Shown piece after piece: positions 348 to 9,951 of a DNA stretch of 64,000 bases. Below the pieces are notes generated by a model. The model was not told where the DNA came from. It made no database searches and saw only the letters and a list, made by a program, of their open reading frames with translations. The position numbers and the translations under genes are program-made. This DNA comes from the human T2T-CHM13v2.0 reference genome, Homo sapiens, in the NCBI RefSeq assembly GCF_009914755.1, contig NC_060926.1; one strand, given 5' to 3'. Positions within the stretch are counted from its first letter, which is position 1; every line of letters starts with the position of its first letter.

Positions 348-2866
<2,519 letters not shown>

Positions 2867-4550
2867 TCAAATTATAACCAAGCTTTAAACCTTAAGAAAC
2901 TAGATTGTACTTAATGGTAAATTTTGTGTTGCATGTTTCCACCATAATATTAAAATAAACCAAATGTAAATTCTAAAACTAAAATGTATAATTTGAAAAA
3001 CTGAAAAGGCAATAGCTCACTGGATGGGCTCAATAGTAGAGCAGAGACGAGAGAGAACAGAGTCAGTAAACTTGAGGAGAGATCAATAGAATTTACTCAG
3101 TCTGAACAACAGAGAGAAATACAGTGAAAATCATGAACCTATGACAATAGCAGGAGAGCTAACTTCCATACCATTGGAGATCTAGGAGAAGAAATAAAGC
3201 AAGACACAACAGAGAGTGAAAAACAGTTCTTAAAAAATTACATAGAAAGGCACAGGCTTTAGAATAGCCAGAACAATCTTAAAAGTAAGAGTAAAATGAA
3301 AGGAATCACTCTCCTCAATACTAATGTCTATTATGTAGTTATCATAAACAAAACAATGTGGTATTAGTGGACACGTAGACACATAAATCAATGGAACAGA
3401 GTAGAAAGCTAAGAAGTACACCCACAAAAATATGCCCAGCTCTTTTTTTTGACAAAAGTACTAAAACAGTCCCAAGCGTAAGGAGCTAGAATAATTGGAC
3501 ATCCATAAGCAGGAAAAAATAATGAAACTCAACCAAAACTTTATACAAATAAACTTTATACAAATAAACTTTACATCTTATAAAAATAAAAATTTTCATA
3601 TATATGAAAATCCTTGGGAGCTAGGGCAAGACAAAGAGTTGATAAACTTGGCACTAAAAGCACAGTCCTTAATAGAAAATATTAATAAATTGAACCTTAT
3701 CAAAAGTTAAAACTTTGCTCTGCAAAGACTGTGGGGAAGATGAAAAGACAAGCTACAGATGTAGGGGAAATATTTATAGACCACATATTTGAGAAAGACT
3801 TGTATGGAGATTATCTAACAAACACACAAACTCAGCAACAATAAACAAACAATATGATTAGAAAATGGGCAAAAGACATGGGTACGCATTTCACCAAAGA
3901 AGATATGCAGAGGGTACATAAGTACAAGAAAAAATGTTCAACATCACTGGCCACTAAGGAAATAAAATGACATATCACTACACACTGCTATCAGAATGGC
4001 TAAAATAAAAAATAATAATAAAACAGTGAAAACACCAAAGTCCGGTGAGAATGTGGAAAAGCTGAATCATTTACACAATCACTGGTGGGATTACAAAATG
4101 GTAGAGCCACTCTGAAAAATGTTTATCAGTTTCTTATAAAACTAAACATCCAATTACCACATGTCCCAGAAATTACAATTTTGGGCAGATATCCTAGAGA
4201 AATGAAAATTTATATTTACACAAAATCTTTCTATGCATGTTCATTACAGCTTTAGTTTTAACAGCAAAAGAAGGTAAACAACTCAGATGTTCTTCAATAG
4301 GTAAAAGGTTAAAAAACCTATGGGACATCCATACCATGAAATGCTACTCAGCAATAACAGGAAACACACTATTCATCTCCAGAAAATTATACTAAGTAGA
4401 AAAAGCCAATCCTCAAAGGCCACCTATGTATCATTTTATTTTTATAACAAGTTTGAAATGACAACATTATGGACATAGGAAACAGAATCACGTTGCCAAT
4501 GGTGGGATAGTGGGATGAGGAGGGAGCGGGTTTAGCTATAAAAGAATAAC

Positions 4551-4591
4551 ATCAGAGGAGATTGGGCATGTTCAGGGTGGTATGTCCCGTA
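4551..4591 (-). pseudogene. 5S rRNA 5'-fragment retrocopy (about nt 4-43), antisense, fused to an Alu
   Basis: ATCAGAGGAGATTGGGCATGTTCAGGGTGGTATGTCCCGTA matches the reverse complement of the 5S 5' end (ATCAGACGAGATCGGGCGCGTTCAGGGTGGTATGGCCGTA); most differences are at CpG sites. Confidence 0.85.
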
Positions 4592-4821
4592 ATCCCAGCA
4601 CTCTGGGAGGCCAAAGCGGGTGGATCATCTGAGATCAGGAGCTCGAGACTAGCCTGGCCAATATGGTTTAACTCTGTCTCTACTAAAAATAGAAAAATCA
4701 TCCGGGCGTGGTGTCATGCACCTGTAATCTCCGCAGTAATCCCAGCTACTCGGGAGGCTGAGGCAGGAGAATCACTTGAACCTGGGAGGTTGCAGTGAGT
4801 CAAGATTATGGGGGAAAAAAA
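4587..4821 (+). mobile_element. AluS, truncated at both ends, part of a 5S-Alu chimera
   Basis: Begins at ..GTAATCCCAGCACT and stops after GTGAGTCAAGAT; short A tail; shared TSD AAAAGAATAACAT at 4540-4552 and 4818-4830. Confidence 0.85.
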
Positions 4822-5037
4822 GAATAACATGAGTGATCCTTGCCATGATAGAATGTTCTGGTTGTGATGTTTTACTATAATTGTGCAAGATATTTGCATA
4901 AGAAATAAAGGGGGCAGAGGTTCTCTTATTTCTTCCAACTTTATGTGAATCAGTAATCTCAAAGGAAAGTTTTAAATAAAAAAGGAAAGCTTACATTAAT
5001 GGGTCCCACATTTTTAAAATTATGGTAAAAGATATGT

Positions 5038-5951
5038 AACCTACAAAATGGGAGAAAATAAGTAAGTGTTGAAAGCATATGAACAGACACTTCTCAAAAG
5101 AAGACATTTATGCAGCCAAAAAACACATGAAAAAATGCTCACCATCACTGGCCATCAGAGAAATGCAAATCAAAACCACAATGAGATACCATCTCACACC
5201 AGTTAGAATGGCAATCATTAAAAAGTCAGGAAACAACAGGTGCTGGAGAGGATGTGGAGAAATAGGAACACTTTTACACTGTTGGTGGGACTGTAAACTA
5301 GTTCAACCGTTGTGGAAGTCAGTGTGGCGATTCCTCAGGGATCTAGAACTGGAAATACCATTTGACCCAGCCATCCCATTACTGGGTATATACCCAAAGG
5401 ACTGTAAATCATGCTGCTATAAAGACACATGCACATGTATGTTTATTGCGGCATTATTCACAATAGCAAAGACTTGGAACCAACCCAAATGTCCATCAAT
5501 GATATACTGGATTAAGAAAATGTGGCACATATACACCATGGAATACTATGCAGCCATAAAAAATGATGAGTTCATGTCCTTTGTAGGGACATGGATGAAA
5601 TTGGAAACCATCATTCTCAGTAAACTATCGCAAGAACAAAAAACCAAACACCGCATATTCTCACTCATAGGTGGGAATTGAACAATGAGATCACATGGAC
5701 ACAGGAAGGGGAATATCACACTCTGGGGACTGTTGTGGGGTGGGGGGAGGGGGGAGGGATAGCATCGGGAGATATACCTAATGCTAGATGACGAGTTAGT
5801 GGGTGCAGTGCACCAGCATGGCACATGTATACATATGTAACTAACCTGCACAATATGCACATGTACCCTAAAACTTAAAGTATAATTAAAAAAATAAAAA
5901 TAAAAAAATAAAAAGTAAAAGCACAACTATATGCAGAAAAAATAAAATAAA
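5038..5951 (+). mobile_element. 5'-truncated young L1 (L1PA2/PA3-like 3' UTR) with ORF2 C-terminal remnant
   Basis: ORF 5079..5681 is the ORF2p C-terminus ([18 protein letters not shown]...SLIGGN). The 3' UTR has GATGACGAGTTAGTGGG and CTTAAAGTATAAT, followed by two A-rich tails. Confidence 0.93.
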
Positions 5952-6330
5952 ATAAAATGTATCATTTTCCCATTTTTAAGTGTATGACTCAGTGGCATTA
6001 AGTACATTCACGTTGCTGTGCGACAATCACACCCTCCATCTCCAGAACTCTTTCATCATCCCAAACTAAAACTGTCCTCATTAAACAACACTCTCAATTT
6101 CCCCCACCTCCCAGCCCCTGGAACCAACACTTCACTTTCTATTTCTATGAATCTGACTACTCTAGGCATCTCATGTAAGTGGAATATACAATATTTGTCC
6201 TTTTGTGACGGGCTTACTCCACTTAGCACAATGTCCACAAGGTCCATCCATGTTGTAGCATGTGTCAGCATTTCCTTCCTTTTTTACTTTGGAATATTAT
6301 TCTATTGTATGTTTATCCATAATAGGTCCT
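5952..6330 (-). mobile_element. L1MB-like 3' end (its extreme end is at ~5010-5040, split off by the L1PA insertion)
   Basis: ORF 6056..6271(-) THATTWMDLVDIVLS..SQKDKYC resembles the ORF2 C-terminus; the flanks TGGTAAAAGATATGTAAC | ATAAAATGTATCATT join as in L1MB ends. Confidence 0.75.
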
Positions 6331-6701
6331 ATGTGTTTGAGTGTTTAAGTCTTCATCCCAAAAAACAGCTTTAAAAACTGATTCATAAACAGTGCAATTT
6401 ACCCTGGTAGGAAGAGATGAAATACTGTCAGACACCAGAGAGGGGCAATAACTCACTGGCTTTAGTTTATTTGCTTTCTGGTAGATCCCCAGAAACTGCC
6501 TGAAAAGCATGAAAGCCAGTGCCTAACATGCCAGCAGGTGCTTGGAAGCCTGAAAGAAATAGGCAGTAAGTAGAAAACCCAGGAGCCATGAGAGTCAAAT
6601 AAAACAGGGGCTCAGGGTTCCAAACGGAAGCTCAAGTTTAGCAGCCAAATAAAAGTATCAGATATCTGGCAGTGACATAAATACTGCAAACTTAGTCTTA
6701 T

Positions 6702-7560: not shown

Positions 7561-9951
7561 AAAAGTGGCTTCCTGTGGCTGACTCTTCACACATTAGACC
7601 TCATTTGATCCTTTTTTAAAACACAATTATGTCAATTTCCTTCCCATTTTAAAAATGGGACATTCAGACATAGAAAATTGAATAACTTGTTAAGAGTTGT
7701 TATCTGACATTTTCTTAGCGTTAAAATGTAACCATGATTAGGAGATCCAAGAATATAAAATCCTAGTTTAGCCCACAATTCCACCTCATGGTGAGTTCCT
7801 GAGGGAAATGTATGTGTCCAAAAAGGATAACAGGCAGGAAGCAAAGGCATCAGAGGGCCCTGGCCCTGTCCCTCAGTGCAGGGGATCCTCCAGCCCATGA
7901 GGGAGGCAGGACATCAGGGCCACTCCTCACAAGCCTTAAACAGCACCCACACAACTGGGCCCTACCCTGAATATAGGAATCTAATAAATGTCCTGAGCAG
8001 GCAGAAGTCGAATTACAGGAGAGTTCAGGGATGTGTACAAATAAGGAAAAAAAAAATGGCTTGGCCTCCTTCCAGTGAGGAAAATAATCTGGGTCAGCTT
8101 TGGCCTTGACCTCCTGGGTGGCAGAAGACAAAGGATGAGCATGGACAATGTGGTGGAATCCTCAACAAATGGGGACTGTACCCATGGTTAACTGAAGCCC
8201 AAACAGTGTCCTAGCATCATTGCAAGCATCAGGCTTCCCAGGTGATGAGGCTAGTGAGAGAGATGGGGAGGATGAAGGAAGCTGGTAGGCAGTGTTCCCT
8301 CCCTGGACCTTGAAGACATGGATGCATGATGAAGACATCATAGGCGCTGGCGGGCTGGCCTCAGCTGGGGGACAGCAAAGCCCACACACCAAGCATCTCT
8401 GTCAGTTTCAGTCTTTTTGAGTTAACTCCTTCAGGCCCTGGACAGTGGCCAGGAGCAAGATCTCAGGAGTTACAGATGGAAACCCTCCTTGGCTTTATGC
8501 GAGACAGAGAGGGCGTAATGTATCTCCTTGGCCCAGGAGCCTACTTTCTATGGATCATTAAAGGGATCTATTTGGGCTAAGGGCAAGTCTCACCCTTCAT
8601 ACACCTGACCTGCTCAGCCTGCAGGTGGGCTTGTGAGATGGACCAAGATCTGACCATGCATAGGGAATGGGAGTGGGCTGCCAGGGAAGGAGGCAGCACA
8701 GAGGCCTTCTCCCTCCTGGAGTAAAACAGTCTAAACCCTAGTAACATCATCCATGGCTCAGGGGGAGGGCATGGCCCCTAGGTCCAGAACACTTGCAACA
8801 TGTTATGGCTTTCATGGAAAGGTAGTAGAGTGAGCTGTGATTCTTAATGCACCTCTACTGTGAATAGTGTTTGGTGGTCATGAATTTTAAGAAGCAATCC
8901 ATAGGGCTTCATTGAAGAAAAGATGCTCTGATGATATTTTCCATCTAAAACCCCAATGCCCCAGACCTGAAAGTAGCTATACATGAGTGGCTCTTCACAC
9001 ATTTTATCTTCTTACTTTTTATAAAAACCCAGTGAAAATAGCATTATCTCATCTTTAAAATGAGGAAATCAGGATTACAGTGTGAGGCTGACGTTAGTTG
9101 GCCCACTCAGAAAGGCAGGCTGGACCATTTGCTCCCAGCTGGCAGACCAGAAGCAGAGCTCACACTCCCTTCTCCTCGGTGGAAGGAGTTTGTGATCAGT
9201 TGCTACGGGAGAAGGAAAGAAAAGATGCTGCCATGGCTTTGCTTGTCTAGAACCCTGAGGTTCCCAAGGGAAGTATTTATGCACCATTTCACTTTATCCT
9301 CACAAGAGGATAGCCTCACCTGTAAGATAACTGAGTATATGTTGTTTCTAGTTTAACAGCTAATTACATTGGGGCATAGGGAACTTCAGTAACTTCCTGA
9401 AGGCTGGTTTCCTGTGGAGCATGTAGAAGTAGAATCTCCAGCTGGGCATGACCACCATGGTAGCACCTCAAGCTGCAGGGGCAGAAGGAGGCACAGGCTA
9501 TGAAAACTCATCACCATTAAAGAGAGCACAGGGCCACTGAGTTAACAAAGCAACATTCTAAGAACAAAGCTAGATAAGTGGGAAAGGACTTTGTTAAATC
9601 TGCTAGAGTAGTTTGTCATGCAGACCGCCAAGTGCCTTCATTCAGCAGGTTGAGATCAGCCAGCTTGAGGACCACTGGCACCCACCCTCATTGCAACTTT
9701 CCCCAAAGGCAAAGACCGAGACTTCTTTTCTGTACTCACAGAATTGATATTACTGATTACTATTTAAGAGTTTGATGTTCAATAAATATTGAACAATATC
9801 AATAATTATAAACCTAATTCACACAGGTGTAGAAGTATGAATACTAGCACAAGAATATTTGTTGTTATTGAAACTTGGTATCTTGTCTGAGTAATGGTAA
9901 GATGTGCTGAAGGCTGCATAAAATTCAAAGTTAAGAAGTATAACTGGGTTT

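What the first reader, a model, noticed from the sequence alone, without database searches (positions are those of the whole stretch)
4540..4830. Antisense 5S rRNA-Alu chimera inside a single target-site duplication (possible twin priming on two different RNAs)
Seen: a perfect 13-bp TSD (AAAAGAATAACAT, 4540-4552 and 4818-4830) brackets ~40 nt of reverse-complemented 5S rRNA 5' end joined through GTA to a sense Alu that lacks its first ~23 nt and last ~30 nt. The TSD's last AT is also 5S sequence (2-nt microhomology). Established: L1 machinery makes U6-L1/Alu chimeras (normally both sense), tailless 5S/tRNA retrocopies, and inversions by twin priming. Inference: the bottom-strand nick primed on Alu RNA while the top-strand 3' end primed internally on a 5S rRNA, so two RNAs were copied in opposite directions in one event. 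That would be a fossil of retrotransposition using ribosome-associated RNA.
Basis: partly seen in the sequence, partly recalled or inferred. Interest (0 to 1): 0.72.

Follow-up and report, generated by a model that had tools for sequence, protein, structure and literature searches.

The report
Backwards 5S rRNA piece fused to Alu
An old retrotransposition scar in a human intron joins a backwards-facing piece of 5S ribosomal RNA to a forward-facing Alu inside one target-site duplication; this is a rare Alu version of a chimera type already described for LINE-1.

Summary
A perfect 13-bp direct repeat (4540-4552, 4818-4830) brackets the antisense of human 5S rRNA nt 43 down to about nt 7-4 (32/37 identical to the genome's own 5S gene). 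This is joined to a sense Alu running from about nt 22-28 to about nt 241. Paralogous copies of the host L1-like element carry the repeat once, so it is a true target-site duplication. The bottom-strand nick site reads TTTT/AT.

The geometry is that of published inverted small-RNA/LINE-1 chimeras: U5/L1 (Doucet 2015) and 27 5S/LINE-1 cases (Law and Burns 2026). Both papers attribute these to twin priming on two RNAs.

What differs is the partner, an Alu. In my limited scans this locus was the only case:
- 27 pattern hits checked.
- 96 other dispersed 5S fragments examined.

Three points remain open:
- The Alu lacks about 40 nt and a real A-tail; GGGGAAA sits there instead.
- No outgroup genome could be checked, so a single event is inferred, not shown.
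- The proposed link to ribosome-associated RNA has no specific support.

Verdict: a real, rare variant of a known kind, of modest interest.

The parts
4200..4539 (+). Left part of the host element, an old L1-like 3' end (family name recalled, not tested); the bottom-strand nick site TTTT/AT lies at 4539|4540
   Evidence: 40 other genomic matches at 67-90% identity; paralogous copies align up to the repeat.
4540..4552 (+). 5' copy of the 13-bp target-site duplication AAAAGAATAACAT; its last two bases (AT) also fit 5S nt 43-42
4551..4591 (-). 5S rRNA fragment, about nt 4/7 to 43, encoded on the minus strand (antisense to the Alu)
   Evidence: 30/34 ungapped; 32/37, E 4e-8; local alignment covers nt 4-43; weak Rfam 5S_rRNA hit cut at the 3' end.
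4586..4591 (.). Inversion junction: CCCGTA fits both antisense 5S nt 8-4 (with a 1-nt indel) and Alu nt 22-27 (one substitution)
4586..4810 (+). Sense Alu from about nt 22-28 to about nt 241 of an approximately 283-nt copy; it carries a 12-nt internal insertion (4724-4735) and a 6-nt deletion after 4782
   Evidence: non-CpG divergence 19/187.
4811..4817 (+). GGGGAAA of unassigned origin, standing where the last ~40 nt of the Alu and its A-tail should be
4818..4830 (+). 3' copy of the target-site duplication
4831..4985 (+). Right part of the host L1-like element; it continues directly from the single repeat copy in paralogues

Best explanation
This is one L1-ORF2p-mediated insertion into an older L1-like 3' end, made by twin priming on two different RNAs.

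Proposed steps (all inferred):
1. The endonuclease nicked the bottom strand at TTTT/AT (4539|4540). That T-rich 3' end primed reverse transcription of an Alu RNA, giving the sense Alu next to the 3' repeat copy.
2. The top strand was cut 13 nt downstream. Its 3' end (...AACAT) annealed by 2 nt to 5S rRNA near nt 43 (loop C) and primed a second cDNA running towards the 5S 5' end.
3. The two cDNAs were joined at a short imperfect microhomology, CC(C)GTA. This removed about 21-27 nt of the Alu 5' end and a few nt of the 5S 5' end.
4. Fill-in duplicated the 13-bp target.

What the sequence shows directly is the anatomy, the true target-site duplication, the nick-site motif, and the identity and orientation of both parts. 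The order of the steps, that both parts arrived in one event, and the cause of the missing Alu 3' end are inferred. My favoured cause for the missing end is a later deletion reaching into a G-containing A-tail; internal priming on a tailless Alu RNA is the alternative.
For: - True target-site duplication. In paralogues L021 and L030 the alignments of the left and right window flanks overlap by exactly the 13 nt. L017 is consistent. L038, L032 and L039 show one copy by eye. That is 6 of 6 paralogues. In one search, 6 of 7 aligned; L018 did not span the site.
- Nick site. T|AAAA at the 5' edge is the L1 endonuclease motif read in the Alu's orientation. Law and Burns score this motif type as 'Yes' in Table S2.
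- 5S identity and orientation.
- The 3' cut at nt 43 is the hot-spot. 45 of 96 other dispersed copies end at nt 36-46 and 32 end at nt 79-91. By my count of Table S2, 12 of the 23 antisense 5S/LINE-1 chimeras end at nt 40-50.
- Published precedent with the same architecture. By my count 23 of 27 5S/LINE-1 chimeras are antisense; the authors report 20 of 27 with 7-17-bp duplications and propose twin priming. Doucet 2015 gives the same model for inverted U5/L1, with the same criteria: the endonuclease motif appears only in the L1 orientation, the truncation lies in a loop, and there is junction complementarity.
- The geometry differs from stand-alone 5S retrocopies. Among 53 stand-alone copies with a flanking repeat of 8 nt or more, 23 have a T-rich repeat end next to the 5S 3' cut and only 6 have an A-rich repeat start. 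The window has AAAA at the start and no T-rich end.
- No second copy of the 5S/Alu junction exists in the genome, so it is not a retrocopy of a pre-existing arrangement (6 candidates, 5 of them 5S only).
Against: - The Alu has no real A-tail, only 3 A beyond the duplication, and lacks about 40 nt of its 3' end. Canonical priming from a T-rich nick expects a poly(A) tail. GGGG at 4811-4814 is unassigned.
- No orthologous empty or half-filled site could be examined, because the genome tool holds no relatives of this genome (header).
- The microhomologies are short: 2 nt at the target/5S junction and an imperfect 5-6 nt at the inversion junction. A longer similarity between antisense 5S and the Alu 5' end, which I suspected, is no better than shuffled sequence (score 15 versus a shuffle mean of 15.3).
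- Divergence of the two parts cannot show equal age: non-CpG 1/29 for the 5S piece (my count) against 19/187 for the Alu. The 5S sample is too small.
Confidence: 0.65

Rival explanations
1. One primer only. The top-strand end primed on 5S RNA as in a stand-alone tailless 5S retrocopy. The reverse transcriptase then switched from the 5S 5' end to an RNA that contains an Alu in antisense, for example an intronic transcript. It copied about 225 nt, and the cDNA end was joined to the TTTT end.
For: It explains without extra events why the Alu lacks its 3' end and A-tail: in this model that end is simply where the cDNA stopped. Stand-alone 5S fragments primed directly at a nick are common (Noll 2015).
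Against: - The L1-type nick motif TTTT/AT lies on the other strand and would then go unused as a primer.
- The 5S-priming end (...AACAT) is not T-rich, unlike 23 of the 53 stand-alone copies.
- GGGGAAA is still unexplained, because Alu sequence should continue there.
- The published chimeras of this shape have the sense partner tailed and primed at the endonuclease site.
Confidence: 0.1
2. Two separate insertions. Either a 5'-truncated Alu with the 13-bp duplication came first and a 5S fragment landed exactly at its 5' junction later, or the reverse order.
For: Both kinds of element insert independently and often. In the census, two 5S fragments (L094, L140) did land inside pre-existing Alus.
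Against: - In L094 and L140 Alu sequence lies on both sides of the 5S piece, overlapping by about 19-21 nt of Alu as a duplication would. L094 also has an exact 14-nt flanking repeat.
- Here neither part has its own duplication, and the single 13-bp repeat encloses both.
- The second insertion would have to hit the junction to the base and leave no duplication.
Confidence: 0.08
3. Repair capture. An L1-endonuclease-made staggered break, or another break, was patched by end joining that picked up free cDNA or DNA fragments of 5S and Alu. No reverse transcription was primed from the top strand.
For: - Both parts are truncated at both ends and there is no A-tail.
- Unassigned filler bases (GGGG) are typical of end joining.
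- The junction microhomologies are short.
Against: - The 5S piece ends at the same nt 42-46 hot-spot and has the same orientation as in the primed chimeras and stand-alone retrocopies.
- The 13-bp duplication and the TTTT/AT motif are the normal L1 signature.
Confidence: 0.1
4. There is no 5S at all. The 40 nt are a decayed Alu 5' end or random filler that merely resembles 5S.
For: Decayed Alu right monomers do produce GGGTGGTATG: most of the 14 hits were of this kind, as seen. Rfam gives only 10.2 bits.
Against: The match is 32/37 to the genome's own 5S gene at E 4e-8 and includes a perfect 15-mer. That 15-mer occurs 382 times genome-wide against 5 for the reversed control. The stretch 4553-4571 has no Alu counterpart.
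Confidence: 0.02

Closest known systems
Antisense 5S rRNA/LINE-1 chimeric insertions (Law and Burns, Cell Genomics 2026, PMC13174262; passages and Table S2 read)
   Same: - One target-site duplication.
- The L1 endonuclease motif on the side of the sense element.
- An antisense 5S fragment starting near nt 1 at the junction and cut near nt 42-46, placed at the 5' end of the sense element.
- Twin priming is the proposed mechanism.
   Different: The sense partner here is an Alu, mobilised in trans, rather than LINE-1. It also has no A-tail. I found no 5S/Alu case in the passages or in the four supplementary tables I searched. The PDF supplements could not be read.
Inverted U5, U1, U2 and U6 snRNA/L1 chimeras explained by twin priming on two RNAs (Doucet et al., Mol Biol Evol 2015, PMC4476161; passages read)
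   Same: - A 3'-truncated small RNA in opposite orientation.
- Truncation in a single-stranded loop.
- The cleavage motif is right only in the retroelement's orientation.
- Complementarity between the small RNA and the target.
   Different: The small RNA is 5S and the partner is an Alu. That paper reports only two U6atac copies associated with Alu and calls U6/Alu chimeras very rare.
Tailless 5S rRNA retropseudogenes (Noll et al., Genome Biol Evol 2015, PMC5322556, passages read; Schmitz et al. 2004, not held and not read)
   Same: The same 5S fragment (about nt 1 to 43), no A-tail, and truncation at a loop hot-spot. My census gives 45 of 96 copies ending at nt 36-46.
   Different: Stand-alone copies are flanked directly by their own duplication, which often has a T-rich end next to the 5S 3' cut (23 of 53). 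Here the duplication also encloses an Alu, and the T-rich primer is on the Alu side.
Twin-primed 5'-inverted L1, and the single 5'-inverted Alu (Kojima, Mobile DNA 2010, PMC2912911, passages read; Ostertag and Kazazian 2001 known only through citations in these papers)
   Same: Two cDNAs primed from the two ends of one staggered break and joined at a microhomology.
   Different: In the classical case both cDNAs copy the same RNA. [quoted passage not shown]
Sense U6/L1 and U6/Alu chimeras made by template switching or RNA ligation (Buzdin 2003 and Garcia-Perez 2007 as cited; Moldovan 2019 seen only in the search listing)
   Same: A small RNA placed 5' of a retroelement within one duplication.
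   Different: In those chimeras both parts are in the same orientation and the small RNA is full length. Here the orientation is opposite and the 5S is 3'-truncated.

Membership tests
Twin-priming chimera (antisense small RNA + sense L1-mobilised element) | A single target-site duplication of about 7-20 bp around the whole composite | tested here: met
   Perfect 13-bp repeat, present once in paralogues of the host element.
Twin-priming chimera (antisense small RNA + sense L1-mobilised element) | L1 endonuclease motif when read in the orientation of the sense element | tested here: met
   T|AAAA on the top strand, i.e. TTTT/AT on the bottom strand, at 4539|4540.
Twin-priming chimera (antisense small RNA + sense L1-mobilised element) | Small RNA 3'-truncated, antisense, at the 5' side of the sense element, with its 5' end at the junction | tested here: met
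   5S nt 43 down to 7-4 on the minus strand, directly abutting the Alu.
Twin-priming chimera (antisense small RNA + sense L1-mobilised element) | Truncation in a single-stranded hot-spot, with microhomology to the target end | tested here: met
   Cut at nt 43. Hot-spot: 45 of 96 copies and Table S2. There is a 2-nt AT overlap. That nt 43 lies in loop C is taken from Law and Burns, not tested here.
Twin-priming chimera (antisense small RNA + sense L1-mobilised element) | Sense element ends in a poly(A) tail at the 3' duplication | tested here: not met
   Only AAA follows an unassigned GGGG, and the Alu's last ~40 nt are absent. A later deletion could account for this but is not shown.
Twin-priming chimera (antisense small RNA + sense L1-mobilised element) | Both parts appear together in phylogeny (empty site in outgroups) | not testable with these tools
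   No other primate genome is held (header: no relatives).
Stand-alone tailless 5S retropseudogene | The duplication directly flanks the 5S fragment on both sides | tested here: not met
   The right-hand copy lies beyond the Alu, and there is no repeat between 5S nt 1 and the Alu.
Template-switch or RNA-ligation chimera (U6/L1 type) | Both RNAs in the same orientation | tested here: not met
   The 5S is on the minus strand and the Alu on the plus strand.
Ordinary Alu insertion | Alu with an A-rich tail, the duplication abutting the Alu at both ends | tested here: not met
   About 35-40 nt of 5S sequence separate the 5' duplication from the Alu, and there is no tail.

The most novel reading that the evidence does not exclude
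Neither half used a poly(A) tail. ORF2p started at the endonuclease nick on an internal or 3'-degraded position of an Alu RNA, possibly after copying a few bases of a third template (GGGG). It started at the second nick on 5S loop C. This would be a 'double tailless' twin-primed insertion made during trans-mobilisation. Together with the census, it would mean that the same 5S nt 1-43 module is copied whichever DNA end primes it. That points to a pre-cut 5S half or a structural entry point at loop C inside L1/Alu ribonucleoprotein particles, rather than to primer complementarity.
Probability: 0.2. Interest if true: 0.5.

Novelty: new variant of a known kind. Interest (0 to 1): 0.33.

Why it matters
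Twin priming on two different RNAs has been documented for LINE-1 copying itself in cis. This locus suggests the same thing can happen when ORF2p mobilises an Alu in trans, where 5' inversions are otherwise almost never seen. [quoted passage not shown] A set of such cases would show whether small-RNA capture at the second DNA end depends on the L1 RNA/ORF1p particle or only on ORF2p at the break. As a single old fossil in a lncRNA intron (GACAT1, from the hub's annotation) it has no evident functional consequence.

Tried and rejected
- **Rfam.** Over 3500-6500 it gave no 5S hit. On the 46-nt stretch alone it gave only a sub-threshold hit. The identification therefore rests on BLAST against the genome's own 5S gene.
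- **Origin from the 5S rDNA array.** The array unit does hold an Alu near the 5S gene, but that Alu is only 75% identical to the window's Alu and the order of the parts differs. Rejected.
- **Retrocopy of a pre-existing 5S/Alu junction.** The junction query found only this locus plus five 5S-only fragments. Rejected.
- **Extended similarity between antisense 5S and the Alu 5' end as a driver of the junction.** It is no better than shuffled sequence. Rejected.
- **Search for a class.** I ran three pattern scans for antisense 5S followed by Alu landmarks.
  - 14 hits; 7 hits; 6 hits.
  - The 21 hits were checked.
  - Of one search's 6 hits, 3 were judged from the printed match and 3 were fetched and checked.
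  - Only the window is a real 5S/Alu junction (1 of 27).
  - These scans need two exact words and gaps of at most 60 nt, so decayed cases or Alus truncated beyond about nt 85 would be missed.
- **Census.** It covered 96 dispersed 5S copies that carry one exact 16-mer.
  - They came from the first 100 of 117 matches (chromosomes 1-18 only).
  - Three tandem neighbours were not fetched.
  - No further Alu-abutting chimera was found.
- **Schmitz et al. 2004.** Not held.
- **Law and Burns supplementary tables.** A look-up by an estimated hg38 position found nothing. The estimate uses a recalled hg38 coordinate of RGPD4, so this is weak.
- **Alu subfamily.** Not determined. I can only say that its non-CpG divergence exceeds that of 89 of 120 other Alus. 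One copy was dropped by a naming slip in the script.

Full report
**What is in the sequence**

The stretch 4540-4830 reads, on the plus strand, as follows:
- AAAAGAATAACAT at 4540-4552.
- About 35-40 nt that are the reverse complement of the 5' part of 5S rRNA.
- A sense Alu up to 4810.
- GGGGAAA at 4811-4817.
- AAAAGAATAACAT again at 4818-4830.

The repeat finder confirms the 13-nt perfect repeat, which extends to 16 nt with one mismatch. Simulated sequence of the window's dinucleotide make-up holds on average 0.77 such 13-mer pairs at 100-500 nt spacing in all 64 kb. A pair placed exactly around a composite insert is therefore not chance.

**Identity of the 5S piece**

Rfam alone is not convincing. 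It gives no hit in a 3-kb scan and 10.2 bits, E 4.8, on the 46-nt stretch.

I therefore took the 5S gene from this genome's own chr1 array (L010, 119 nt, identical in 5 of the 6 array loci fetched).
- Window 4551-4584 matches its antisense at 30/34 without gaps, covering 5S nt 43 to 10.
- With gaps the match is 32/37, reaching nt 7, at E 4e-8.
- A local alignment reaches nt 4.
- Three of the four core mismatches are CpG transitions, as expected for an old, once-methylated copy.
- The perfect 15-mer inside it occurs 382 times in the genome against 5 for the reversed control.

**The Alu**

Compared with two full-length copies, the Alu starts at about nt 22 and is recognisable to about nt 241 of roughly 283. 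The six bases 4586-4591 fit both antisense 5S (with a 1-nt indel) and the Alu (one substitution). The junction therefore lies somewhere between 4585 and 4592 in a short imperfect microhomology.

The Alu lacks about 40 nt at its 3' end, not about 30, and has no real A-tail. It also carries a 12-nt insertion (4724-4735) and a 6-nt deletion. Its non-CpG divergence from the majority of 120 other Alus is 19/187, higher than 89 of those 120. It is therefore an older Alu, but I could not name its subfamily.

**The repeat is a true target-site duplication**

The flanks belong to an old L1-like 3' end with many diverged copies elsewhere.
- In six paralogous copies the word corresponding to the repeat occurs once. 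It is followed directly by the sequence that follows the second copy in the window.
- In L021 and L030 the alignments of the left and right window flanks overlap on the paralogue by exactly 13 nt.
- The 5' edge reads T|AAAA, that is TTTT/AT on the bottom strand. This is the L1 endonuclease motif in the orientation of the Alu.

**Mechanism**

Opposite orientation of the two parts excludes a single cDNA copied across two sense RNAs, whether by template switch or RNA ligation.

The layout is the one expected if two things happened. The T-rich bottom-strand end primed on the Alu RNA. The top-strand end, cut 13 nt downstream, primed on 5S RNA near nt 43, where it shares AT. The two cDNAs then joined at a microhomology.

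The model is also a published one.
- Doucet et al. 2015 drew it for inverted U5, U1, U2 and U6/L1 chimeras. They listed the same hallmarks: the endonuclease motif only in the retroelement's orientation, truncation in a loop, and junction complementarity (passages).
- Law and Burns 2026 catalogue 27 5S/LINE-1 chimeras. By my count of their Table S2, 23 are antisense, and 12 of those end at 5S nt 40-50. They report 20 with 7-17-bp duplications and propose twin priming (passages; table).

**How special is the Alu partner?**

- A query across the junction finds no second copy in the genome.
- Three pattern scans for antisense 5S followed by Alu landmarks gave 27 hits. Only the window is a real 5S/Alu junction. 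The rest are decayed Alu right monomers or chance.
- I then examined 96 other dispersed 5S copies that share one 16-mer. Their 3' ends fall as follows:
  - nt 36-46: 45 copies
  - nt 47-56: 8 copies
  - nt 79-91: 32 copies
  - full length: 8 copies
  - elsewhere: 3 copies
- Two copies (L094, L140) abut Alu sequence, but the Alu continues on both sides, so there the 5S piece landed inside an existing Alu.
- None repeats the window's architecture.

These scans are partial. They need exact words, cover chromosomes 1-18 for the census, and miss deep Alu truncations.

[quoted passage not shown] Doucet 2015 calls small-RNA/Alu chimeras very rare. I saw no 5S/Alu case in the passages and tables I read. 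The PDF supplements of Law and Burns could not be read.

**An internal contrast**

Among 53 stand-alone 5S copies with a flanking repeat of at least 8 nt, 23 have a T-rich repeat end next to the 5S 3' cut. That suggests the endonuclease-nicked strand primed the 5S directly. Only 6 have an A-rich repeat start.

The window is of the second, rarer kind: AAAA at the start and no T-rich end. This is what one expects if the nicked strand was used by the Alu and the 5S was primed from the other end. The contrast is suggestive, not decisive, because 27 of the 53 show neither signature.

**What does not fit**

A primary Alu priming event should leave an A-tail. Here only AAA follows four unassigned G's, and the Alu's last ~40 nt are gone. 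Three explanations are possible:
- a later deletion reaching into a G-containing tail (this copy has other indels);
- internal, tailless priming on Alu RNA;
- the rival in which a single cDNA primed on 5S switched to an antisense-Alu-bearing RNA.

I cannot tell these apart without orthologs. I had suspected a long similarity between antisense 5S and the Alu 5' end as a driver of the junction, but it is no better than shuffles. The Alu that sits in the 5S rDNA unit is not the source, being only 75% identical.

**Verdict**

The mechanism and the antisense-5S architecture are already described for LINE-1. The new element is the Alu partner, together with the absence of a tail. The suggested link to ribosome-associated RNA has no specific support, since 5S fragments of this kind are common L1 by-products (Noll 2015). 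This is a rare variant of a known kind, of modest interest.

Noticed in passing
Loci L072-L164 (dispersed 5S fragments in the genome): Stand-alone tailless 5S retrocopies often have a T-rich end of the flanking repeat right next to the 5S 3' cut, with words such as ATTTTCA or TTTTCT. This holds for 23 of 53 copies with a repeat of 8 nt or more, and the repeat usually overlaps the 5S by 2-4 nt. It suggests direct priming of 5S RNA from the endonuclease-nicked strand.
   Followed up: partly
L094 (G000:C3:44338426-44338661) and L140 (G000:C11:111938540-111938775): These are 5S fragments (nt 2-46 and nt 7-79) inserted inside pre-existing Alus. Alu sequence lies on both sides, overlapping by about 19-21 nt of Alu. 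L094 also has an exact 14-nt flanking repeat.
   Followed up: partly
G000:C5:6914497-6914802 (L107 covers the first copy): The 5S 16-mer recurs three times at 145-nt spacing, so a 5S nt 1-42 fragment seems to be part of a short tandem repeat.
   Followed up: no
G000:C2:164607481-164607550 (L089): Two matches of the 5S 16-mer lie only 54 nt apart on the same strand.
   Followed up: no
window 948-961 with 1445-1458; window 8915-8927 with 9217-9229: Two further exact direct repeats of 13-14 nt lie outside simple repeats: AAAAATAGAAAAAT at 497-nt spacing and AAGAAAAGATGCT at 302-nt spacing. The second looks like the target-site duplication of an ordinary Alu-sized insertion.
   Followed up: no
window 4699-4762 and 4570-4682: There are weak sub-threshold Rfam hits to mir-1268 (27 bits) and Metazoa_SRP (19.7 bits) inside the Alu. 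From recall, such hits are the usual echo of the Alu's 7SL origin and of Alu-derived miRNA families.
   Followed up: no
L010 1204-1417 (chr1 5S rDNA unit): Each 2.2-kb 5S rDNA unit carries an Alu about 85 nt beyond the 3' end of the 5S gene, in the opposite orientation. It shares a 24-nt identical stretch with the window's Alu, but overall identity is only 75%.
   Followed up: yes
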